From Escherichia coli (GTDB lineage Bacteria > Pseudomonadota > Gammaproteobacteria > Enterobacterales > Enterobacteriaceae), in assembly GCF_044324875.1 (NCBI RefSeq), contig NZ_CP172185.1: a stretch of DNA of 64,000 nt. One strand, 5' to 3'. The notes below the pieces were generated by a model. That model did not search any database. It had not been told where the DNA came from and worked only from the letters and a program-made list of their open reading frames with translations. Shown piece after piece: positions 26,790 to 36,457 of the stretch (positions within the stretch are counted from its first letter, which is position 1; each line of letters opens with the position of its first letter). The translations under genes were made by a program, and so were the position numbers.

Positions 26790-27345
26790 CAGGAAAAAAA
26801 CAGACAGCGCACAGCACAGTACATCACTGCTTCCACCGTCCGCAGGGCCATTCATGCGCGCCACAGAGGCGACAGGAGTACGCATCAGTGCCATACCGGT
26901 GGACGCCGACACCCTGTGGTCGCCGGACCGCTGCCCTGCTCACCTCCTGCCCTACCTTGCATGGGCATGTTCCGTTGACAGCTGGGACCGCAACTGGCCG
27001 GAAGAGACCAGGCGACAGGTGATTCGGGACGCATGGATGATACATCGCCACAAAGGGACCATCAGTGCACTCCGCCGCATCGTTGAACCACTGGGCTACC
27101 TCATCCGTGTATCAGAATGGTGGGAGTTTGACGGCTCGCCCGGGACCTTCACCATTGAGATTGGCACACTTGAAACCGGAGTAAGTGAAGAGGTGCATGA
27201 AGAAATGGAGCGTCTGATTGCCGATGCGCGCCCCGTCAGCCGCCACCTCGTGGGGCTTAGTATCATCCAGGAAATACACGGTGCCATTTACGCCGCTGCC
27301 GCAGGTTACGACGGCGACATCATCACCATTTACCCGGAAGACTGA
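26782..27345 (+). CDS. I: Baseplate protein, P2 gpI family (187 aa from ATG 26782)
   Basis: Position between J and the tail fibre gene. Confidence 0.8.
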   Translation: MSDRKKTDSAQHSTSLLPPSAGPFMRATEATGVRISAIPVDADTLWSPDRCPAHLLPYLAWACSVDSWDRNWPEETRRQVIRDAWMIHRHKGTISALRRIVEPLGYLIRVSEWWEFDGSPGTFTIEIGTLETGVSEEVHEEMERLIADARPVSRHLVGLSIIQEIHGAIYAAAAGYDGDIITIYPED

Positions 27346-27348
27346 ACC

Positions 27349-29229
27349 ATGAGCACGAGAAAATTCAGAACCCTTATCACCGACATCGGGCTGGCAAAGC
27401 TGGCCGCAACAACGGCGCCTGGCGGTAGACCTGTACGCCTTACGCACATGGCTGTAGGGGACGGCAATGGAGAGCTTCGTCAGCCGCAGAAAAACCAGAC
27501 ATCGCTTTACAATGAGGTTTGGCGCCAGTCTGTCAACCGCGTCTTCACCGACCCGGAGAACCCGAACCGCCTCATCGCCGAACTGGTCATTCCTCCTGAA
27601 ACCGGCGGATTCTGGGTGCGTGAAATTGGTGTGTTTGATGATACAGGTACAATGATTGCAGTAGGAAATACCGCTGAAAGTTACAAGCCCACCAGAGAGG
27701 AAGGTTCAGGGCGGGCGCAGATATTCCGTGCAGTAATCACCGTCACCTCCGACGCCGTGGTGGAACTGGTCATGGACACAACAACAATTCTGCCGACCAC
27801 GGACTACATTGATGAGAAAATAGCGGAACACGCACGTTCCCGTAACCACCCTGACGCGACACTGACAGAAAAAGGATTCACCCAACTGAGCAGCGATACA
27901 AACAGCAATTCCGAAACGCTGGCGGCCACACCAAGAGCCGTCAAGGCTGCATATGACCTTGCAGCCCGTAAAGCACCCGCCAGCCACACCCACCCGTGGA
28001 ATCAGATAACTGGTGTGCCATCAGCCTCGCTGACGGCAAAAGGCATCGTACAGCTGAGCAGCGATACAAACAGCAATTCCGAAACGCTGGCGGCCACACC
28101 AAGAGCCGTCAAGGCTGCATATGACCTTGCAGCCGGTAAAGCACCCGCCAGCCACACCCACCCGTGGAATCAGATAACAGGTGTGCCATCAGCCTCGCTG
28201 ACGGCAAAAGGCACCGTACAGCTGAGCAGCGCCACAAACAGTGAGTCAGAGACTGAGGCCGCCACCCCCAAAGCGGTTAAAGCCTTACACGATATGCTGA
28301 CGAGCAAGTATACAGGACAGGATGCAACCACCGGACGCAAAGGCATCGTACAGCTGAGCAGCGCCACAAACAGCAATTCCGAAACGCTGGCGGCCACACC
28401 AAGAGCCGTCAAGGCTGCATATGACCTTGCAGCCAGTAAAGCCTCTGCCAGCCACACCCATCCGTGGAATCAGATAACAGGTGTTCCATCAGCCTCGCTG
28501 ACGGCAAAAGGCATCGTACAGCTGAGCAGCGCCACAAACAGCAATTCCGAAACGCTGGCGGCCACACCAAGAGCTGTTAAAGCTGCGTATGACCTTGCCA
28601 ACAGCAAAGCCGCGGCAGCCCACACTCATCGCTGGGCTCAGATCACAGACGCCCCTGTTTTTTCGTCTGTTGCCCGCGTCATCATGGGTAAACAAAGCAT
28701 AAAAGATATTCTTGATTACCTTGGTTTAGGAGAAGGCTCGACGCTGCCAGTTGGCGTACCCGTTCCGTGGCCTTCGTCAAGACCACCTGAAGGGTGGTTA
28801 CAGTGCAATGGTGCCGCATTCACGCGTACAAAATACCCAAAACTGGCAGTGGCCTACCCTGACCTAAGGCTACCAGATTTGCGCGGGGAATTTATTCGTG
28901 GATGGGATGACCTGCGAATGATTGACAGGGGACGCTTATTGTTATCCACACAGGAAGCAACATATATTTGTACCGCCATACAGGCGTACCACGGCGTAGC
29001 GGGAGGTGCAGATATTCAGGCAGGGATTTCATTTGCATCACATGATAACGACATCATAAACATAACCCCTGATCAACCCAGAACCGGTAACGGCATCCTG
29101 TACGGCAGAAAACCAGTTGACAGATGGGCAATAGCCAGAGCCGGTAAGCTGGTGAGTAATGAAAAAGACAGATGGATAGCGATCAGACCGCGCAATATCG
29201 CTTTTAATTATATTGTGAGGGCAGTTTAA
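27349..29229 (+). CDS. H: Tail fibre protein (gpH-like) with internal 56-aa tandem repeats and C-terminal tail-collar-like domain
   Basis: 626 aa; about five repeats of G(I/T)VQLSS(A/D)TNSNSETLAATPRAVKAAYDLA...SHTHPWNQITGVPSASLTAK; position before the fibre assembly gene. Confidence 0.85.
   Translation: MSTRKFRTLITDIGLAKLAATTAPGGRPVRLTHMAVGDGNGELRQPQKNQTSLYNEVWRQSVNRVFTDPENPNRLIAELVIPPETGGFWVREIGVFDDTGTMIAVGNTAESYKPTREEGSGRAQIFRAVITVTSDAVVELVMDTTTILPTTDYIDEKIAEHARSRNHPDATLTEKGFTQLSSDTNSNSETLAATPRAVKAAYDLAARKAPASHTHPWNQITGVPSASLTAKGIVQLSSDTNSNSETLAATPRAVKAAYDLAAGKAPASHTHPWNQITGVPSASLTAKGTVQLSSATNSESETEAATPKAVKALHDMLTSKYTGQDATTGRKGIVQLSSATNSNSETLAATPRAVKAAYDLAASKASASHTHPWNQITGVPSASLTAKGIVQLSSATNSNSETLAATPRAVKAAYDLANSKAAAAHTHRWAQITDAPVFSSVARVIMGKQSIKDILDYLGLGEGSTLPVGVPVPWPSSRPPEGWLQCNGAAFTRTKYPKLAVAYPDLRLPDLRGEFIRGWDDLRMIDRGRLLLSTQEATYICTAIQAYHGVAGGADIQAGISFASHDNDIINITPDQPRTGNGILYGRKPVDRWAIARAGKLVSNEKDRWIAIRPRNIAFNYIVRAV
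27880..28640 (+). repeat. Tandem 168-bp (56-codon) direct repeats inside the tail fibre gene
   Basis: Repeat unit recurs at 28021, 28189, about 28357 and about 28486 at nucleotide level. Confidence 0.8.
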
Positions 29230-29840
29230 TGAGTAACACTGCAGTTCTGGATGAAAACGGTATCGCCACTTTCGCAGGCGATATCACTGTATATCACTAT
29301 GATGAGGAAACCCGGGAATACACCTCATCCTCTGTGGAGTATCTGGCCCTGGGGGTGGGTACCCCGGCACATTCATGCGCCGATGCCCCGCCAGAGGCAA
29401 TGCCGGGTTACGTGATTTGCCGGACGTCCACGCTGGACGGGTGGGAGTATGTCCCCGATCATCGTGGAGAGACGGTATACAGCACAGAGAACGGTAATCC
29501 GGTCCAGATTACCCAACCAGGTGACTACCCGGAAGGGACAACGACAAAACAGCCTGCCACACCATGGGATACCTGGAACGGTGAGGCGTGGGTAACCGAT
29601 ACAGAACGGCAGCAAGCCGAAGAGCTGGAGGTTGCCAGACAGCAACGCCAGGAACGGGTGGATCAGGCGATGAAGTCCATCGACCTCATCAACCTTAAGT
29701 TGCGGGCAGGTCGCAGTCTGACACCAGAAGAAACGGCAAAACTGAATGCCGTGCTGGATTATATCGACGAGCTGAACGCACTGGATATCAGCACGGGGCC
29801 TGAAATAACCTGGCCGGAAACACCACCAGGAATGGAATGA
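29229..29840 (+). CDS. G: Tail fibre assembly chaperone (gpG/Tfa-like)
   Basis: 203 aa directly after the tail fibre gene. Confidence 0.8.
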   Translation: MSNTAVLDENGIATFAGDITVYHYDEETREYTSSSVEYLALGVGTPAHSCADAPPEAMPGYVICRTSTLDGWEYVPDHRGETVYSTENGNPVQITQPGDYPEGTTTKQPATPWDTWNGEAWVTDTERQQAEELEVARQQRQERVDQAMKSIDLINLKLRAGRSLTPEETAKLNAVLDYIDELNALDISTGPEITWPETPPGME

Positions 29841-29883
29841 GCGGGGAAAAGGAACGGGCATTCATAAATAATTCATCATGCAG

Positions 29884-29903
29884 GTGCCGCAAGAATGCGG
29901 CAC
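29884..29903. terminator. Hairpin (gtgccgc-aagaat-gcggcac) between the converging G and U genes
   Basis: 7-bp perfect stem in the 70-bp gap between convergent gene ends. Confidence 0.45.
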
Positions 29904-29910
29904 ATTACCT

Positions 29911-30399
29911 TCACATCAGATCATTTACGCCGCTTACTGTGGTATTCCAGACCGAACTTAACTTCCCTTTCATTCCCGAAAGCATATCAGACACCGGCGA
30001 CGAGGCCATACTCTCCCGCAAATCCTCATCACAGCGTTCCAGACTGACAGTGAACTCAATTTTTTTGGCCTTACCGTGGCGGTCAAGTTCGCTTCGCGTT
30101 GTGCGGACAGCCGTTATCACATACATGCCGTATATCTGCCCCACACCGTCAATCAGCGGCCATGGGCGACCAGTGTAAGCCTGCGTCGTTAAAAGGCTGA
30201 GGGAAACCTCACCGCCGGTAATTTCGGGATAAAGCACACCGGACAACGTGATCTGGTCGTCACCCGCCCCGATATACTGCCAGCTGGCCGAACGATTGAT
30301 GCGTTCATTTTTAACGTGGCGCCAGGTTTTATTATGTTGCAGTTGTTGATGAGGCAGCGTACGCAACTCAAAAACAAACATGCCGTAAATCATCATCAT
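29911..30399 (-). CDS. U: Tail protein, P2 gpU family
   Basis: 162 aa (P2 U about 159 aa); N-terminus MMMIYGMFVFELRTLPHQ... resembles gpU as recalled. Confidence 0.8.
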   Translation of the reverse strand: MMMIYGMFVFELRTLPHQQLQHNKTWRHVKNERINRSASWQYIGAGDDQITLSGVLYPEITGGEVSLSLLTTQAYTGRPWPLIDGVGQIYGMYVITAVRTTRSELDRHGKAKKIEFTVSLERCDEDLRESMASSPVSDMLSGMKGKLSSVWNTTVSGVNDLM

Positions 30400-30410
30400 G
30401 CGAGGTACTC

Positions 30411-33400
30411 CTAATCTCTGTCACGGAAACTACCGACTGTCTGGCGGATACGGCGTTCCATTTCCGCACGGACGGCATCACCCACCATTTTTGCCAGTTC
30501 GCGCGGGTTTTGCGTGTGAACATCATGCAGGTGAATATGCAGTTCGCCAGTTAATCCCCATGGTGCCGGATCACTCTGACGCGGTCGGGGCGATGCGGGG
30601 GATATGGGCTGGCGTACAGCCTCAACCACCGGACGGGATGTTGCCGTTACGACGGGTGTCATTACCGGCGCAATATTGCCGGACACGACCGGTTTAATTA
30701 CCGGGGAGAGCGTCGGTATAACATCGCCAGCCATAACCGGTTTGATCGCTGGCGAAATAACCGGAGCAACAGACTCAGCCATGACGGAACTGACAGGCTG
30801 AGGCGCTCTCACTATGCCAGCATCGATAACCAGCATGAGCTCGCGTACTGCCTCAAGGACAGGACGGGATATTGCCGCCATCACTGGTGTCATTAGCGGG
30901 GAGAACGTCGGCATGACATCGTGAGTCATAACCGGTTTGATCACCGGCGAAACCACTGGCGTAATATTACCGGACAGTACCGGACGGACGACCGGAGGAA
31001 TAACCGGCACATTATTCACGGACACCACCGGCTTCACGACCGGCGACACGTTCGCCGTGGTGGATATCAGCGGCGAAACACTGACAGGCGGTGGCGCTGG
31101 CAGCGGTGGCAACGAAGGCACACTGACCGACGGCACCTGCGGCAGTCTGACAGGTGGCTCACTGACACTACCCGGTAACAGGGAAGCTGCGCGGTTAAAG
31201 CGTTCCTCCTTCCACTCACCACGAACGGCCAGCGCTTCCGGCAGGTTTTTAAAGATAATATCGCCGGGACCAGTGCGTTTTTTCGCCTGTTTCGCCTCAT
31301 CCAGCAGGCCACCGGTGTTATCGACGATTTTATTCAGGCGACGCATGGTGCCGGTATTCTCCCCCGTCAGCGGAGCAGTTGCTGCAGGTGCAGGTACTGG
31401 CGGCTTTTTGTCTTTGTCATTTTGCGGCGGATTAATGACATTAACATCCGCCAGGAGCATGGCGGCTTTCTCGTTCAGCAGCTCCTTCTGCTTCAGCTCT
31501 TCCGCCTTTTTCCGGGCGCGCTCAACCGCCGACGGAATCAGCCCGAGTTTTTCCAGCACCCGGGTTAACGAGTCAACCAGCAGCGTGACCGGACCGGTCA
31601 CCAGATTGCTGATAAACTCCCCGACCTTCTGCCCGAACGTCCGCCCGGCTTCCGTGCACTTGTCCAGCTCATCCTTTGTTGTGCTTACCGGCGCGAACAG
31701 GTCCACGAACCACTGCCACACACGCCCGATTGTCTGCCCGACGTACTCAAATATCGGTCCCAGCGGTGCCACAGCCTCGCGCAGTGGCGTAAGCCCCTGC
31801 CACAGGCCGGACAGATACCCACCCACGACAGCCTTCAGCTGGTCCCAGTGCCGCCAGATAAGCACTGCCGCACCGACCAGTGCCGCCACCACGAGGCCCA
31901 CCGGACTTAACAGAAAACCCAGCGCCCCGCCAAGTGCGCCCACCGCACCACTCACCATTCCCCACAGCGCAGGCAGACCTGACAGTCTGAGCGCCAGCAT
32001 ACCGATACCGCGCCCCAGAGAAAGCAGAGCACCGCCCGGGGAAGTGAACGCAGCCAGCAGACCACCACGCAGCGTACCGAGTAGTCCGCGCACGCCACGA
32101 AGCCGGACCGCAAGCCGTCCCGCACCGGTATCAAGACCGGCAAACAGCACACGCCAGCCGCCAATACCACTCATCGACCCACCGAGTACGCCGCGCAGCT
32201 GCGTCAGTAACGGCAGCGCACGACCGAGGCCGGATGTGCCGGTCAGCAGGGAAAAGCCAAGACGCAGTTTTGCCAGCGGCCCCAGCAACACGCCGGTAGC
32301 CAGTGACAGCGCCCCCGTGGCCGCAACCGCAGCCAGCAGTGCACCACCGGCAATCAGCAGTTGTTTTGTCAGTTCAGGGTGCGCCTGGGCCAGCGCGGTG
32401 ACTTTCGCAATAACCCGGGTGAACGACTGCGTGACAGAACGCAGCGGCCCGTCAACGAGGTCAGCGACACGGATACGCAGCCCTTCCCATGCGCTGTTCA
32501 GTGATTTCAGGTCGCCGTCCAGGTTGTCCGCCATGATTCTGGCGTTTTCTTCCAGTTCGCCGTTCGCTGCCTGAATCTCACGCGTCAGGCGCGGCAGGTT
32601 TTTTTCGCCTGCCTGTTCAACCAGGCTCATCAGGGAGACATACGCCTCCTGCCCGGCAATATCTGAAAAGAACGAGACTTTTGCCGCGTTACCGTATTTA
32701 CGGGTGGCCTGATACAGCTCATACAGGATATCTTCCATCGGGCGCATGTTCCCGTAAGCATCCTGCGTTTCCACGCCCAGCTGTTTCAGCGCCTTTGCTG
32801 CCGCTTTAGGCGGGTTCACAAGGCGGGACAGACTGGAGCGCAGCGCCGTACCAGCATCACTGCCACGTATCCCCATCGACCCAAGCAACCCGGTCATGGC
32901 TGCGGTCTGTTCAAGAGACAGACCGAGTGAGGCGGCGACCGGTCCCGTATATTTCATCGTCTCACCAAGCCCGCGCAGGTCGGTATTGGTGCGGGTGAAC
33001 GTTGCGGCCAGCGTGTCACCCACGCGGTTCATCTGGTCGGCAGACAACCCGAACTGCGTAAGGATATTTGAGCTGATATCGGCCGTCTGACCGAGGTCCA
33101 TGCCGCTGGCCGTTGCCAGATTCAGCACGCCGGGAAGAGCCGCCTGTATCGCCTGCGGCGTGAACCCCGCCATGGCAAGGAACGCCTGACCGCTGGCAGC
33201 ATCACCTGCGGTAAACTGCGTTTCGGAGCCGAGTTTAAGCGCCTGTTCGCGCAGCGCCTTAAACTGCGGACTGTTTTTGTCAATACGGGTCAGCGCCTGG
33301 ACGCGCGACATCTCCTTACCAAAACTGACCGCCGGTTGCAGGAAACGCCCGGCCGCATAGCCACCTGCCGCTGCCGTGCCGACTGCCGTAAATCCACCCG

Positions 33401-33932
33401 CTTTCAGTTTTCCCGCCATCTCCTGAGCGCGGAAATATTGCTGGCGTGCCTGCGTGACGCGTGCCAGAGTCTGCCGTTCACGTTCCAGCTGTTCGTTGTA
33501 TTGCTGTGTTCGCCGTATGGCCTGTTGAATGGTGTTGTCACTGCCGGAAAGCGCAATACCGTGACGCCGCAGCTCACCACCCAGTTCGCGCATTCGCTGA
33601 ACTTCACGCGCACGGACCTCATTGAGACGCTCAAGTTTGAGGCTCAAATCGTTCATCAGCTTTTTCTGTTTGTCAGACAGCACGGTTCCGGCGCGCTGAA
33701 TTTGCTGAAGTGCGCTTAACTGGCGTTGTGCCCGGGCAATGCCGTTTCCGGCCTTGTTTGCAGCCTCGCGGGCGCGATCAAATGAACGGGCGTGGCGTTC
33801 CAGGTTTTTGATCGCACCCTGCGTTCTCTGTATGGAGTCGCCAAGCTGGCCCATCATGCGACGGGCGTTTTCGGTGGGACGGGTCAGCCTGTCAACAGCG
33901 CTGAAGGCGACCCGTATATCAAGCGTTTTCAT
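30411..33932 (-). CDS. T: Tail tape measure protein (gpT-like), 1173 aa from the ATG overlapping the E' stop, with Pro/Val-rich repetitive C-terminus
   Basis: Very long Ala/Gly/Leu-rich ORF following the E/E' chaperone pair; the ORF track start at 33968 is an over-extension. Confidence 0.85.
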   Translation of the reverse strand: MKTLDIRVAFSAVDRLTRPTENARRMMGQLGDSIQRTQGAIKNLERHARSFDRAREAANKAGNGIARAQRQLSALQQIQRAGTVLSDKQKKLMNDLSLKLERLNEVRAREVQRMRELGGELRRHGIALSGSDNTIQQAIRRTQQYNEQLERERQTLARVTQARQQYFRAQEMAGKLKAGGFTAVGTAAAGGYAAGRFLQPAVSFGKEMSRVQALTRIDKNSPQFKALREQALKLGSETQFTAGDAASGQAFLAMAGFTPQAIQAALPGVLNLATASGMDLGQTADISSNILTQFGLSADQMNRVGDTLAATFTRTNTDLRGLGETMKYTGPVAASLGLSLEQTAAMTGLLGSMGIRGSDAGTALRSSLSRLVNPPKAAAKALKQLGVETQDAYGNMRPMEDILYELYQATRKYGNAAKVSFFSDIAGQEAYVSLMSLVEQAGEKNLPRLTREIQAANGELEENARIMADNLDGDLKSLNSAWEGLRIRVADLVDGPLRSVTQSFTRVIAKVTALAQAHPELTKQLLIAGGALLAAVAATGALSLATGVLLGPLAKLRLGFSLLTGTSGLGRALPLLTQLRGVLGGSMSGIGGWRVLFAGLDTGAGRLAVRLRGVRGLLGTLRGGLLAAFTSPGGALLSLGRGIGMLALRLSGLPALWGMVSGAVGALGGALGFLLSPVGLVVAALVGAAVLIWRHWDQLKAVVGGYLSGLWQGLTPLREAVAPLGPIFEYVGQTIGRVWQWFVDLFAPVSTTKDELDKCTEAGRTFGQKVGEFISNLVTGPVTLLVDSLTRVLEKLGLIPSAVERARKKAEELKQKELLNEKAAMLLADVNVINPPQNDKDKKPPVPAPAATAPLTGENTGTMRRLNKIVDNTGGLLDEAKQAKKRTGPGDIIFKNLPEALAVRGEWKEERFNRAASLLPGSVSEPPVRLPQVPSVSVPSLPPLPAPPPVSVSPLISTTANVSPVVKPVVSVNNVPVIPPVVRPVLSGNITPVVSPVIKPVMTHDVMPTFSPLMTPVMAAISRPVLEAVRELMLVIDAGIVRAPQPVSSVMAESVAPVISPAIKPVMAGDVIPTLSPVIKPVVSGNIAPVMTPVVTATSRPVVEAVRQPISPASPRPRQSDPAPWGLTGELHIHLHDVHTQNPRELAKMVGDAVRAEMERRIRQTVGSFRDRD

Positions 33933-34445
33933 GCTCTGCGTTCCCGCTGCGAAGGGCCGCCCGCTCACGCCAGGCGACCACCTCGCCGGGATCCATCAGG
34001 AAGATTTCAGCGGGAGACCAGTTGAAAATAACGGCGATATCCGCCACAAAGTCTTCAATATGCTCAAAGGGCACGACGGTTATCAGCCTGCCGTCGCCGC
34101 CACGCTCTTCCCGCCAGAGTCCTGACCGGCCAAAAAATTAACCGCCACCCCGCACAGCTGAATAAAATCAGCGGACCCCATGCGCTTAAGCATAACCTCG
34201 TCCAGTCGCGGCGAAGTGACGCGCGGGAGTAACTCAAACATCGCGTCCGTTTTCATGTTCAGCACGTCAAGCAGTGACAGCCCGCGCAGTGAACCGGCCT
34301 GCTGTACAGCAGGCGTGATTTCCACATACGTGATTTTTTTGTTACCGAGCACAAGGGGTGTTTTCAGTGTCACGCCGCGCTCACTGGTCACGTCAGCCAC
34401 ATCAGCACCGTCAGTAACAGGGGCAACAACCGGATTTTCTTTCAT
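33919..34445 (-). CDS. Tail assembly chaperone frameshift product E+E' (programmed -1 frameshift at 34131..34137)
   Basis: Manual translation in the -1 frame after T_TTT_TTG gives an extended product ending at TGA 33919..33921, overlapping the tape measure start. Confidence 0.7.
34083..34445 (-). CDS. E: Tail assembly chaperone, P2 gpE family (zero-frame product)
   Basis: 120-aa ORF upstream of the tape measure gene; carries the slippery heptamer near its 3' end. Confidence 0.8.
   Translation of the reverse strand: MKENPVVAPVTDGADVADVTSERGVTLKTPLVLGNKKITYVEITPAVQQAGSLRGLSLLDVLNMKTDAMFELLPRVTSPRLDEVMLKRMGSADFIQLCGVAVNFLAGQDSGGKSVAATAG
34131..34137 (-). promoter_or_regulatory. Programmed -1 ribosomal frameshift heptamer T TTT TTG (E to E')
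   Basis: Heptamer in frame as (AA)T TTT TTG in the last part of E; conserved mechanism in tail chaperone genes. Confidence 0.7.
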
Positions 34446-34494: not shown

Positions 34495-35013
34495 TTAACC
34501 ACCAAGACCAATCGCCGAGCGCACGCGGTCCGGGAAGACGCTTTTGCCGTCCTTGCGTTCGATGTGGTTCAGTAAATCAATCTCCAGCACCGGACGGTCG
34601 TTAATGCTGAGTTTGTAGTAGGTACTTTTGACCGCATAGGTGTGAGACGTGACCTCACCCTGTTTGGCCTCCCCGGTATCAATTTCCGTCACGCGACCGC
34701 GAAGCTCAATCTCGTACAGGTCACTCTGTTCTTCATCGTTGTAGTACTCACCGACAAAGCGCAGCAGCGTACCGTCAATCGTGCCGCCGTACTTGAGGAA
34801 CAGTTCGCGGGTCGGCCCGCCCATGGTGAAACTCGCATCCAGCGCGCCGTCATCCAGGCCAAGGTCGATATTTACTGCACCGGCCATACCACCACCGCGA
34901 TAGGCTTCCGTTTTACGGGTCAGTTTGGGGGGCGTGAAGCCGGTCACCCTGCCAATCTGGTTCACCCCGTCAGTAAACAGCGTGAACACCCTGAGATTTT
35001 TTGGTACGGCCAT
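34495..35013 (-). CDS. FII: Tail tube protein, P2 gpFII family
   Basis: 172 aa between the sheath and E genes. Confidence 0.8.
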   Translation of the reverse strand: MAVPKNLRVFTLFTDGVNQIGRVTGFTPPKLTRKTEAYRGGGMAGAVNIDLGLDDGALDASFTMGGPTRELFLKYGGTIDGTLLRFVGEYYNDEEQSDLYEIELRGRVTEIDTGEAKQGEVTSHTYAVKSTYYKLSINDRPVLEIDLLNHIERKDGKSVFPDRVRSAIGLGG

Positions 35014-36296
35014 TAAGCACCTCCAAGCGTCGCAAATGCAGGACCAAAGAATTCATCAGTAAACGTCTGGTAAAGTTCCATATCCTCAAGCGGCGGAACG
35101 GGCGTGTACTTGTAGCGGATACGCACGCGTCCCTGACGAAGTTCCGTGGTGCTGTTATCCACCACGTCATACCAGCACTCCGCACCAACGAGACGTCCTG
35201 ACGTAACCAGCGCATCCAGTTTTGCGCGAATTGCGCTTAACACGTCTTTCACATTAGCAGGGGTCAGCGGGGCATCAATCGTTTCAAACTGCGCTTCCGC
35301 AACAGAATCAGCCAGCACCTGAGCGGTTCGCGTGTACACCTCAAAGATATACGCCTTCGTTTCCGGCGTACGGTTGCCCCAGAAGCGGAAACCGTTACGG
35401 CGAATGATGGTGGTGATTTCCTTGTTGTTGAGATTGTTGGCATCGCTGTCTTCGGACTGAAGGGACCAGAACACCCGGCTGGAAATACCCAGCACATTTC
35501 TTACCGGCACGTTGGACAGCGATTTATGCCAGCCCTGTTCGTGGTCAATACGTGCACGTAAACCGCAGGCGTACGCCGCAGCCGGGAAGACCTCATTAGC
35601 GCCGGATTTCGGGTTATAGGCGATGAAGTCAGGCCAGAGCAGCATAAGTTCGCGCTCGTTAAATCTGGCGCGGTAGCTGATTGCATCAGCGGGCTTCTTG
35701 CAGTTGTGACAGCCCGCGTAGACAAATGCGCGAAGTTTTTCTGCAATTACACACAGGGATTTTGTGACAGCTTCAGTATCCAGTCCGGGAGCTGCGATGA
35801 TGCGCGGACGGTAACCGATGGCATCATCCTGTTCAGCTATCAGAAGTGCATACATACCGGTATAATTACCGTCGCCATCCGTGCCACCAATGACATACTG
35901 GTCCTGCGTTTTGTGTGGGTATACAGGATGTGCATCTTCAGACTCATCAATACCAAAAAATGCCCTGTCTTCAGGATCCAGATGACCGAATGATGTAACT
36001 CCTGTATCCGGGGCGCCCTGAGAACTGGCATCAGGAACGCGCACCACAATCACCTTCGTGCTCACCTGGTCGGCGACAGCCTTAAGCGATTTGTAAAGCG
36101 TCCCCTTTGTGCCGGCCTTACCCAGCACATCACTGACGCGGGTCAGCAGTGTGGGTTTGTTCAGCGGGAACAGAGTTTCATCCGCGTCATCTGCCGTAGC
36201 CACAATACCAATAACACTGGAATCCACATCATTAATGGCGGTGGCAAGGCCGGTACTTTCCCTTACGCGCGCACCATGAAAGCGTGTTTCACTCAT
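35013..36296 (-). CDS. FI: Tail sheath protein, P2 gpFI family (427 aa from ATG 36296)
   Basis: Motifs collinear with P2 FI as recalled (LNKP, KGTLY, EQGWHK, GFRFWGNRT, NYTRTAQV, YTPVPPLE); the ORF track start at 36443 is an over-extension. Confidence 0.88.
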   Translation of the reverse strand: MSETRFHGARVRESTGLATAINDVDSSVIGIVATADDADETLFPLNKPTLLTRVSDVLGKAGTKGTLYKSLKAVADQVSTKVIVVRVPDASSQGAPDTGVTSFGHLDPEDRAFFGIDESEDAHPVYPHKTQDQYVIGGTDGDGNYTGMYALLIAEQDDAIGYRPRIIAAPGLDTEAVTKSLCVIAEKLRAFVYAGCHNCKKPADAISYRARFNERELMLLWPDFIAYNPKSGANEVFPAAAYACGLRARIDHEQGWHKSLSNVPVRNVLGISSRVFWSLQSEDSDANNLNNKEITTIIRRNGFRFWGNRTPETKAYIFEVYTRTAQVLADSVAEAQFETIDAPLTPANVKDVLSAIRAKLDALVTSGRLVGAECWYDVVDNSTTELRQGRVRIRYKYTPVPPLEDMELYQTFTDEFFGPAFATLGGA

Positions 36297-36369
36297 ATGT
36301 TTCACCCTTGTCTGGCTGGTTGATTTTGCGTAATCATTACCCACACACGCGGTAATCTCACCCCTTTGA

Positions 36370-36393
36370 TGTTGTCTCCTGACAGCGACAACA
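36370..36393. promoter_or_regulatory. Perfect dyad TGTTGTC-N10-GACAACA containing TGT-N12-ACA, candidate Ogr-dependent late promoter element shared by divergent FI and D
   Basis: Read directly; fits the TGT-N12-ACA dyad characteristic of P2 late promoters; lies in the 160-bp FI/D divergent region. Confidence 0.5.
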
Positions 36394-36457
36394 AAACAGC
36401 CATTCAACGCCGCTACGGTGCATGAAACCATTACAGAACGCACCAGGAGAGAACACC

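What the first reader, a model, noticed from the sequence alone, without database searches (positions are those of the whole stretch)
30411..31150. Repetitive Pro/Val-rich C-terminal extension of the tape measure protein
The tape measure protein is about 1173 aa, far longer than the 815 aa I recall for P2 T. The C-terminal 230 aa are PV(I/V)KPV-type repeats encoded by an internal about 240-bp nucleotide duplication (30640..30800 versus 30880..31040). Tape-measure length sets tail length, and such C-terminal repeats sometimes carry extra domains.
Basis: seen in the sequence. Interest (0 to 1): 0.3.

Follow-up and report, generated by a model that had tools for sequence, protein, structure and literature searches.

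The report
Expanded Pro/Val-rich linker in tape measure
A P2-like E. coli prophage has a tail "ruler" protein in which a short proline/valine-rich linker near the C-terminus has grown by repeat duplication to three to five times its usual length and still varies in copy number between strains; this is a modest curiosity rather than a new kind of system.

Summary
The gene at window 30411..33932 (-) is an intact 1173-aa tape measure protein (TMP; PF10145, E 3e-58) of a P2-family prophage. Its nearest phage relative is Xuanwuvirus P88. About 200 residues (aa ~917-1124) are 38-40% Pro+Val. They consist of 16-residue sub-repeats grouped into two diverged 65-77-aa units.

This is not a C-terminal extension. 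It is an expansion of an internal linker between two conserved elements: the motif GPGDIIFKNLPEALAVRGEW and a 49-aa C-terminal module (HIHLH + helix + SFRDRD). That linker is 46-74 aa in 65 related TMP sequences. In this lineage it is 149, 226 or 291 aa, corresponding to 1, 2 or 3 units, all in frame. The variants arose by recombination between short direct repeats.

No phage record, Pfam or PHROG family, PDB chain or any of 1.84 billion representative proteins holds a homologous block. AlphaFold2 predicts coil (pLDDT ~30-35).

Most likely it is a disordered or extended spacer in the tail-length ruler. Each unit probably lengthens the tail, but this is inferred and not shown. RefSeq wrongly marks the gene as a pseudogene. 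Interest is low to moderate. I class it as a new variant of a known kind.

The parts
30411..33932 (-). Tape measure protein gene. It encodes 1173 aa from the ATG at 33932; the ORF extends up to a GTG at 33968; the stop codon is at 30411-30413.
   Evidence: ORF list and translation. PF10145 E 3.3e-58. phrog_28 E 5.6e-190. 31% identity to P2 gpT over aa 6-633, E 1.5e-86. 65-67% identity to Xuanwuvirus TMPs.
31212..31271 (-). Conserved motif GPGDIIFKNLPEALAVRGEW (aa 888-907). It forms the N-terminal border of the linker.
   Evidence: Near-invariant in 11 aligned relatives and present in all 71 sequences measured.
31053..31184 (-). Pro/Ser/Val-rich lead-in SLLPGSVSEPPVRLPQVPSVSVPSLPPLPAPPPVSVSPLISTTA (aa 917-960). 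It is absent from relatives.
   Evidence: Alignments; coordinates.
30771..31052 (-). Repeat unit 1 (aa 961-1054): sub-repeats NVSPVVKPVVSVN, NVPVIPPVVRPVLSGN, ITPVVSPVIKPVMTHD and VMPTFSPLMTPVMAAI, followed by the cap SRPVLEAVRELMLVIDAGIVRAPQPVSSVMAES.
   Evidence: Self-alignment and sub-repeat listing. Nucleotide repeats D1-D4.
30561..30770 (-). Repeat unit 2 (aa 1055-1124): sub-repeats VAPVISPAIKPVMAGD, VIPTLSPVIKPVVSGN and IAPVMTPVVTAT, followed by the cap SRPVVEAVRQPISPASPRPRQSDPAP. The cap motif SRPV.EA(V/I)R is the only part of the block also found in the P88-like and Salmonella relatives.
30747..30941 (-). The 195-nt segment (aa 998-1062) that is exactly duplicated in tandem in E. coli Br_112_kylling, giving a 1238-aa TMP. 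It is bounded by the direct repeat GATCAAACCGGTTATG.
   Evidence: 195/195 identical tandem copy in L005.
30645..30875 (-). The 231-nt segment (aa 1020-1096) that is deleted in the one-unit allele (1103-aa TMP, e.g. E. coli SCU-115). The junction lies within the repeat CGGCAA(T/C)ATCCCGTCC.
   Evidence: The same allele occurs in IMG/VR contig L014.
30414..30560 (-). Conserved C-terminal module WGLTGELHIHLHDVHTQNPRELAKMVGDAVRAEMERRIRQTVGSFRDRD (aa 1125-1173). It is the presumed anchor to the baseplate spike or hub.
   Evidence: Invariant G, H-x-H-L-H, R-E, A-E and S-F columns in alignment A1. AlphaFold2 predicts a helix at 283-306 of the 313-aa segment, pLDDT 70-80. The anchoring role is inferred by analogy with the diffocin TMP (PMC10996793).
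29911..30399 (-). gpU-family tail protein, immediately downstream of the TMP gene.
   Evidence: PF06995 E 2.8e-41.
33919..34445 (-). Tail assembly chaperone pair E / E' (the 120-aa ORF at 34083..34445 plus the GpE-family segment at 33919..34074), immediately upstream of the TMP gene.
   Evidence: ORF list. PGAP annotation of the identical region in TUM9803, mapped to window coordinates.

Best explanation
The block is a lineage-specific, repeat-driven expansion of the Pro/Val-rich linker near the C-terminus of the tape measure protein. On one side of the linker is the body of the protein that lies in the tube lumen: the coiled-coil N-terminus, the PhageMin_Tail domain, the glycine-rich hydrophobic segment and the GPGDIIFKNLP..RGEW motif. 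On the other side is the conserved 49-residue C-terminal module, which most likely docks on the baseplate spike or hub.

The linker grew from about 50-70 residues to 149-291 residues. The mechanism was unequal recombination or slippage between 16-23-nt direct repeats created by reiterated Pro-Val codon strings. The process is still active, giving in-frame alleles with one, two (this window) or three units.

The segment has no fold of its own. It behaves as a disordered or extended spacer threaded, as three chains, through the tail tube. Because the TMP is the ruler around which the tube polymerises, each 65-77-aa unit should add ruler length. A rough estimate is one to five tube rings per unit, depending on how extended the chain is.

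Shown here: the anatomy, the position of the insertion, the absence from relatives, the copy-number polymorphism, its repeat-mediated origin, and the lack of any recognisable domain. Inferred: the trimeric state, anchoring of the C-terminal module, and any effect on tail length.
For: - TMP identity and synteny (sheath, tube, E/E', T, U) match Xuanwuvirus P88.
- Alignment with P88, ST16-OXA48phi5.4 and phiT5282H places the block as an insertion between two conserved elements.
- Linker length is 46-74 aa in 65 relatives and 149, 226 or 291 aa in this lineage.
- Alleles of 1103, 1173/1180 and 1238 aa are all open reading frames. The third unit is an exact 195/195-nt tandem duplication, and the one-unit allele is a 231-nt deletion; both have junctions in short direct repeats.
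- 27 of 5426 complete E. coli genomes carry the block, and 26 of them are in frame.
- The two internal units have diverged, with pS 0.56 and dN/dS about 0.44. This indicates an old, translated duplication.
- AlphaFold2 predicts coil with pLDDT ~30-35 across the block, and confident structure only for the C-terminal helix.
- No domain or homologue was found: Pfam, PHROGs and PDB; 1.84 billion representative proteins gave only 7 weak low-complexity hits.
- Published structures show a trimeric TMP whose C-terminal helices anchor on the spike (PMC10996793).
Against: - No virion with this allele has been measured. None of 50,697 phage records contains the block, so the tail-length effect is untested.
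- In one study P88 (TMP 935 aa) and pro147 (TMP 815 aa) had tails of about 137-140 and 130-131 nm (PMC5285337). This is far less than proportional, which hints that residues C-terminal of the hydrophobic region add little length. These are rough negative-stain estimates.
- Too few substitutions separate the alleles within the block to test selection directly (Sd 2, Nd 2).
- The monomer AlphaFold2 run used an 11-sequence alignment. It cannot exclude an ordered trimeric structure.
Confidence: 0.7

Rival explanations
1. The expansion is neutral and tolerated. The linker lies between two functional modules, is free to slip, and collapses inside the tube lumen or hub cavity. On this reading copy number has no measurable effect on tail length or infectivity.
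For: - The block is low-complexity and predicted to be disordered.
- Indels are frequent and repeat-mediated.
- The P88 versus pro147 tail lengths suggest that C-terminal extras add little length.
- The block is rare: 27 of 5426 genomes.
Against: - By my estimate, three chains of about 200 residues occupy roughly 80 nm3. That is at least 7-14 nm of a lumen about 3.8 nm wide, so some length effect is hard to avoid.
- The units have persisted long enough to diverge to 72-80% nucleotide identity while staying in frame, with dN/dS about 0.44.
Confidence: 0.3
2. The block has a role after ejection. The TMP leaves the tube C-terminus first, and the stiff Pro-rich segment acts as an extended rod that helps the protein cross the periplasm and peptidoglycan to the inner membrane. 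This is analogous to the Pro-rich spacer of TonB. The block might also engage periplasmic prolyl isomerase chaperones.
For: - The block sits next to the C-terminal end, which lies at the tail tip (by analogy, PMC10996793), and downstream of a hydrophobic segment that could insert into membrane.
- The weak compositional matches are spacer or stalk-like PV repeats of unrelated proteins.
Against: - There is no homology to TonB or any other periplasm-spanning protein.
- Close relatives infect the same hosts with a 46-74-aa linker.
- Nothing here tests behaviour after ejection.
Confidence: 0.12
3. The block is an extra functional domain carried by the TMP (enzymatic, receptor-binding or peptidoglycan-degrading).
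For: Some TMPs do carry embedded muralytic domains. An example is the active muramidase domain in the phiIPLA35 TMP, cited in the diffocin paper's reference list.
Against: - There is no Pfam or PHROG hit on the block, while its flanks do hit.
- There is no PDB match.
- AlphaFold2 gives coil at pLDDT ~30-35.
- The composition is 38% Pro+Val with a 16-aa periodicity.
Confidence: 0.03
4. The gene is a decaying pseudogene in a defective prophage, as the RefSeq annotation implies ('incomplete; missing C-terminus'), and the repeats are junk accumulating in dead DNA.
For: - PGAP flags the gene as a pseudogene in every record inspected.
- One allele (strain 135) has a 10-nt frameshift inside the block.
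Against: - The ORF is intact over 1103-1238 codons in 26 of 27 genomes, and all the large indels are multiples of 3.
- The body is under purifying selection, with dN/dS 0.17-0.26.
- The surrounding prophage has a complete P2-type morphogenesis gene set.
- The pseudogene flag reflects a partial match to reference proteins, not a lesion in the sequence.
Confidence: 0.04

Closest known systems
Tape measure protein of Escherichia phage P88 (Xuanwuvirus, Peduoviridae; YP_009113088.1, 935 aa)
   Same: - About 67% identity over the alignable parts.
- Same gene order: D and ogr divergent from sheath, tube, E, E', T, U.
- Same GPGDIVFKNLP..RGEW motif and same C-terminal HxHLH + helix + SF.D.D module.
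- Its 71-aa linker is already 31% Pro+Val and contains one SRPVAEAIR cap.
   Different: - The linker is 71 aa in P88 and 226 aa here.
- P88 has no PS-rich lead-in and no 16-aa sub-repeat array.
- P88 lacks a ~58-aa block in the hydrophobic region.
Bacteriophage P2 gpT (NP_046782.1, 815 aa)
   Same: The N-terminal ~720 residues are homologous (31% identity, E 1.5e-86). The position between E/E' and U is the same, and the overall plan ends in a short strand + helix C-terminus.
   Different: The C-terminal ~90 residues are not alignable. P2 gpT has no GPGDI.FKN motif, no HxHLH motif and no Pro/Val block.
In-frame duplications and deletions in the TMPs of lambda (gpH) and TP901-1 that change tail length
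   Same: The principle is the same: internal in-frame length changes of the ruler protein. Tail length is reported as proportional to the number of TMP repeats (discussed in PMC8616913, which cites Pedersen et al. 2000).
   Different: Those changes are in alpha-helical ruler segments with 11-residue aromatic periodicity, and were engineered or selected in the laboratory. Here the variable segment is non-helical, Pro/Val-rich, close to the C-terminus and naturally polymorphic.
Pro-rich extended spacers such as the TonB periplasmic rod, the titin PEVK region and the PV(A/V)DPVVKPV stalks of surface proteins (the first two from my own knowledge)
   Same: Composition (Pro with Val/Lys), short periodic repeats, predicted lack of a globular fold, and a presumed spacer role. 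One of the weak database matches, P0053, has a PVADPVVKPV array.
   Different: There is no sequence homology (best E 8.5e-7, driven by low complexity). The cellular context is entirely different. This is analogy only.

Membership tests
Phage tail tape measure protein (Pfam PF10145 PhageMin_Tail; PHROG 28) | Significant match to the family profile above the curated cut-off | tested here: met
   PF10145: 197 bits against a cut-off of 33.2, E 3.3e-58. phrog_28: E 5.6e-190.
Phage tail tape measure protein (Pfam PF10145 PhageMin_Tail; PHROG 28) | Gene lies between the tail chaperone pair (E/E') and the downstream tail/baseplate genes, next to the tube and sheath genes | tested here: met
   On the minus strand the order is sheath 35013..36443, tube 34495..35013, E 34083..34445, E' 33919..34074, T, U 29911..30399.
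Phage tail tape measure protein (Pfam PF10145 PhageMin_Tail; PHROG 28) | Protein length determines tail length | not testable with these tools
   This needs electron microscopy of virions. No phage record carries this allele.
P2-family (Peduoviridae) gpT, Xuanwuvirus-type subgroup | Homology to P2 gpT and to P88-type TMPs over the body, within a P2-type late gene set | tested here: met
   31% identity to P2 gpT, E 1.5e-86. 65-67% identity to P88-group TMPs. The locus has a P2-family capsid, GPO scaffold, gpV/W/J/I, gpD and Ogr.
P2-family (Peduoviridae) gpT, Xuanwuvirus-type subgroup | Short (46-74 aa) linker between the GPGDI.FKN motif and the C-terminal module | tested here: not met
   226 aa here, and 149 or 291 aa in sister alleles, against 46-74 aa in 65 relatives. 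This is the feature that makes it a variant.
TMPs with an embedded catalytic or accessory domain (lysozyme, peptidase, Rpf-like) | A recognisable folded domain within the extra segment | tested here: not met
   No Pfam, PHROG or PDB hit on the block. AlphaFold2 pLDDT is ~30-35 with no secondary structure except one 17-residue helix.
TonB-like / PEVK-like Pro-rich spacer proteins | Sequence homology to a known Pro-rich spacer family | tested here: not met
   There were only 7 hits at E <= 1e-3 among 1.84 billion representative proteins. All are unrelated low-complexity arrays.
TonB-like / PEVK-like Pro-rich spacer proteins | Extended, non-globular conformation acting as a mechanical spacer | tested here: inconclusive
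   Composition and the low-confidence coil prediction fit this. The conformation inside a trimer confined in the tube cannot be computed here.

The most novel reading that the evidence does not exclude
The 65-77-aa Pro/Val unit is a natural, recombination-driven 'length dial' on the tail ruler. On this reading the otherwise near-identical prophages carrying 1, 2 or 3 units make tails of discretely different lengths. Alternatively, they differ in how far the ejected TMP reaches across the envelope. Either way, the series would be a ready-made allelic set for measuring how many angstroms per residue a non-helical, proline-rich segment contributes to tail length, and whether tail length is under diversifying selection in the wild.
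Probability: 0.35. Interest if true: 0.45.

Novelty: new variant of a known kind. Interest (0 to 1): 0.3.

Why it matters
The tape-measure model has mostly been tested with helical segments that were engineered in lambda and TP901-1. This lineage offers a natural three-step series (1103, 1173 and 1238 aa) that differs only in a non-helical Pro/Val-rich unit close to the spike anchor. Measuring the tails of these three alleles would show whether residues in that region count towards length, and at what pitch.

There is also a practical point. RefSeq marks this gene as a truncated pseudogene and leaves about 1.7 kb unannotated in 26 of the 27 genomes. Public protein databases therefore hold it only as fragments, and automated prophage-completeness calls for this lineage will be wrong.

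Tried and rejected
- Tandem Repeats Finder on 27000..32000 did not report the duplication; the copies are too diverged and contain indels. The seed-and-extend repeat finder and protein self-alignment did find it.
- megablast against phages found only an 8% match. tblastn was needed to find the P88 group.
- Searching the repeat block alone against 1.84 billion representative proteins gave only low-complexity look-alikes. There is no homologous block elsewhere.
- The word-indexed protein search returned almost only fragments. These were enough to measure linker lengths but not whole-protein lengths.
- PDB searches with the whole protein and with the C-terminal profile found a TMP match to the N-terminal body only (9g8s, E 6e-44) and nothing for the C-terminal third.
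- AlphaFold2 on the C-terminal 313 aa gave mean pLDDT 43. That is too low for a fold search, so none was run.
- Antisense and alternative ORFs under the block (30398..30697, 30604..30801, 30921..31178, 30937..32574, all on the + strand) have no Pfam hit. The 545-aa ORF, the only one also scanned against PHROGs, has no hit there either. They were rejected as embedded genes.
- dN/dS within the block between alleles could not be estimated (4 differences in total), because the 3' part of the gene is a recently shared recombination segment.
- The pseudogene reading from RefSeq was rejected because the ORF is intact.
- I did not run the expensive metagenome and genome-collection scans. Searches already bound the distribution.
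Full report
**What is there**

The finding lies at the 3' end of a minus-strand ORF, window 30411..33968 (1185 codons from a GTG).

The product is a tape measure protein (TMP). It matches PF10145 PhageMin_Tail at ORF residues 240-439 (228-427 in the 1173-aa numbering), E 3.3e-58, and phrog_28 at E 5.6e-190. It shares 31% identity with P2 gpT over aa 6-633, E 1.5e-86.

The neighbouring genes on the same strand are:
- sheath, 35013..36443
- tube, 34495..35013
- the E/E' chaperone pair, 33919..34445
- a gpU-family protein, 29911..30399

The tail-fibre and baseplate genes converge on this block from the + strand. That arrangement looks unusual for P2, but it is the normal order in Xuanwuvirus P88, the nearest sequenced phage, whose TMP is 65-67% identical.

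The window is an E. coli P2-family prophage. The late region is 98-99.6% identical to prophages in strain TUM9803, while the rest of the window differs.

**Checking the observation**

ORF residues 931-1130 are 21.5% Val and 20.5% Pro, against 5.7% Val in the first 930 residues.

The duplication is real but old:
- Window 30688-30803 matches 30883-30998 at 72% identity, offset 195.
- Window 30604-30668 matches 30835-30899 at 80% identity, offset 231.
- At protein level the two units align with score 157. Composition-matched shuffles gave 38 +/- 7.7, with a maximum of 72 in 500 trials.

Beneath the large units lies a 16-residue period, phi-x-P-phi-phi-(S/P)-P-phi-phi-(K/R/T)-P-V-phi-x-x-x. Examples are ITPVVSPVIKPVMTHD and VIPTLSPVIKPVVSGN. 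Each large unit is three such sub-repeats closed by a cap that begins SRPV(L/V)EAVR.

The description 'C-terminal 230 aa' is not.

**Where the block sits**

I aligned the protein with the TMPs of P88 (935 aa), Klebsiella phage ST16-OXA48phi5.4 (995 aa) and Enterobacter phage phiT5282H (988 aa). The block is an insertion between two conserved elements:
- the motif GPGDI(I/V)FKNLP.ALAVRGEW (aa 888-907)
- a 49-residue C-terminal module, WGLTGELHIHLHDVHTQNPRELAKMVGDAVRAEMERRIRQTVGSFRDRD (aa 1125-1173)

It is therefore an expanded internal linker, not an extension.

I measured the distance between the two elements in every related sequence I had retrieved. It is 46-74 aa in 65 sequences from E. coli, Salmonella, Klebsiella, Enterobacter, Symbiopectobacterium and Serratia. 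It is 149, 226 or 291 aa in this lineage only.

P88's 71-aa linker is already 31% Pro+Val and holds one SRPVAEAIR cap. It therefore looks like the seed from which the array grew.

P2 gpT has none of this; its last ~90 residues are unalignable.

**Copy-number polymorphism**

Among 5426 complete E. coli genomes, 27 carry the block.

| Span of the 920-nt query (nt) | Genomes/records | Allele |
|---|---|---|
| 920 | 8 | two units (this window) |
| 1115 | 1 | three units |
| 689 | 17 records, several from the same strains | one unit |
| 679 | 1 | one unit with a 10-nt frameshift |

The translated alleles give TMPs of 1103 aa (one unit), 1173 or 1180 aa (two units) and 1238 aa (three units). All are open reading frames. 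The 679-nt allele is frameshifted and truncates at residue 958.

The third unit in strain Br_112_kylling is an exact 195/195-nt tandem copy bounded by GATCAAACCGGTTATG. The one-unit allele is a 231-nt deletion whose junction lies in the repeat CGGCAA(T/C)ATCCCGTCC. This is ordinary repeat-mediated unequal recombination or slippage, and it has happened recently.

By contrast, the two units in the window have diverged (pS 0.56, dN/dS about 0.44). The first duplication is therefore old and has been kept in frame.

Comparing the window with the one-unit allele, the 5' body has dS 0.31 while the linker plus C-terminal module has dS 0.018. The gene is thus a recombination mosaic. This also means there are too few differences to test selection inside the block.

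IMG/VR holds one two-unit and one one-unit contig.

**Is it a domain?**

No.
- Pfam and PHROGs match the flanks but not the block.
- PDB searches match only the N-terminal body (9g8s, a tail tape measure, E 6e-44).
- A full HMMER scan of 1.84 billion representative proteins with the block alone returned seven hits, best E 8.5e-7. All are unrelated low-complexity Pro/Val arrays.
- None of 50,697 phage records has the block.
- AlphaFold2 on the last 313 residues, with an 11-sequence alignment, gave mean pLDDT 43. Across the block it predicted coil at pLDDT ~30-35, with one 17-residue helix in cap 1. Confidence of 70-80 was reached only for the C-terminal helix.
- The antisense ORFs under the block have no family match.

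**How it most likely works**

Published work on contractile systems shows the TMP as a trimeric coiled coil. It fills the tube lumen, and its C-terminal helices are intertwined with the spike (diffocin, PMC10996793). TMPs in general are described as helical except at the C-terminal extremity (PMC8616913).

By analogy, the conserved 49-aa module here is the anchor, and the Pro/Val block is a spacer between the anchor and the ruler body. This step is inferred.

Some effect on tail length seems hard to avoid. By my estimate, three chains of ~200 residues occupy roughly 80 nm3, which is at least 7-14 nm of a lumen about 3.8 nm wide. At alpha-helical pitch the block would span ~30 nm, and as a polyproline-II-like chain ~60 nm. 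Each 65-77-aa unit would then add between about one and five tube rings.

The only empirical hint points to the low end. In one study P88 (TMP 935 aa) and pro147 (TMP 815 aa) had tails of 137-140 and 130-131 nm (PMC5285337), although their alignable ruler bodies are the same length. That corresponds to about 0.5-0.8 A per extra C-terminal residue. These are uncalibrated negative-stain estimates, so I treat them as suggestive only.

**Rivals**

- A purely neutral, tolerated expansion remains possible (0.3).
- A post-ejection role as a periplasm-spanning rod or chaperone handle is possible but unsupported (0.12).
- An embedded functional domain is effectively excluded (0.03).
- The pseudogene reading implied by RefSeq is effectively excluded (0.04).

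**Comparison with what is known, and novelty**

This is a bona fide P2-family TMP of the Xuanwuvirus type that fails one family-typical feature, the short linker. In-frame length change of TMPs is a classic concept. However, the known cases discussed in the papers I read concern helical repeats. I found no description of a naturally copy-number-variable Pro/Val-rich linker next to the spike anchor; a full-text search for tape measure protein + proline-rich + tail length returned only two unrelated papers. I class it as a new variant of a known kind, of low to moderate interest.

**Annotation note**

RefSeq/PGAP labels this gene 'incomplete; missing C-terminus' and annotates only the first ~590-730 codons in every record I inspected. 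In 26 of the 27 genomes no feature at all lies under the last 920 nt of the gene. The ORF is intact, so this is an artefact of partial matches to reference proteins.

Noticed in passing
window 27349..29229 (+), repeats at 27886..28583: The tail-fibre gene contains near-perfect tandem repeats with periods of 168 and 300 nt, 91-97% identical; Pfam finds Phage_fiber_2 five times. The homologous prophage copies in E. coli TUM9803 have fibres of 812 and 868 aa, against 626 aa here. The fibre therefore also varies by repeat copy number.
   Followed up: partly
window 30411..32160 approx. (-); loci L001, L005-L008, L011, L012: RefSeq/PGAP marks this intact TMP gene as a pseudogene ('incomplete; partial in the middle of a contig; missing C-terminus'). 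It leaves about 1.7 kb unannotated in 26 of 27 complete genomes. Public protein databases consequently hold the C-terminal part only as 'hypothetical protein, partial' fragments.
   Followed up: yes
window 30525..30539 (-), TMP aa 1132-1136: An invariant H-x-H-L-H motif, G(E/D)(I/L)H(I/V)HLH, opens the C-terminal module in the aligned P88-type TMPs. P2 gpT and a Serratia/Klebsiella michiganensis subgroup (FQLVFNDV) lack it. From my own knowledge, HxH motifs on three-fold axes bind iron or zinc in phage spikes and fibres, so this could be a metal site in a trimeric anchor. The only database echo was a non-significant HIT-family match (E 0.78).
   Followed up: no
L001 and L012 (E. coli TUM9803, NZ_CP135671.1): One strain carries this TMP 3' region at three places. 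At least two are complete near-identical P2-like prophages at different chromosomal sites, one beside ytfP/tamB and one beside ihfA. Each is flanked by toxin genes (Hok/Gef at one site, HicAB at the other).
   Followed up: partly
window 32100..32280 approx. (-), within the glycine-rich hydrophobic region of the TMP (coordinates estimated from the alignment): Relative to P88, this TMP has an extra ~58-aa block (…VLFAGLDTGAGRLAVRLRGVRGLLGTLRGGLLAAFTSPGGALLSLGRGIGMLALRLSG…). The Klebsiella and Enterobacter phage TMPs share it. It is a second, independent contributor to the greater length.
   Followed up: no
window 30411..33932 (-) compared with L007: The gene is a recombination mosaic. Between the window and the SCU-115 allele, the 5' 905 codons have dS 0.31. 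The linker and C-terminal module have dS 0.018, and the downstream gpU is the same protein accession in most of the records inspected.
   Followed up: partly
window 31086..31109 (-), TMP aa 942-949 (PPLPAPPP): The lead-in to the repeats contains PP and PPP runs. From my own knowledge, such runs typically need elongation factor P for efficient translation, so they are a possible translational pause site in a late structural gene.
   Followed up: no
window 29840..29911, between the tail-fibre assembly gene (+) and gpU (-): P88 has a DNA invertase and an alternative fibre cassette between gpU and the fibre genes. This prophage lacks them; the two convergent blocks are only ~70 nt apart.
   Followed up: no
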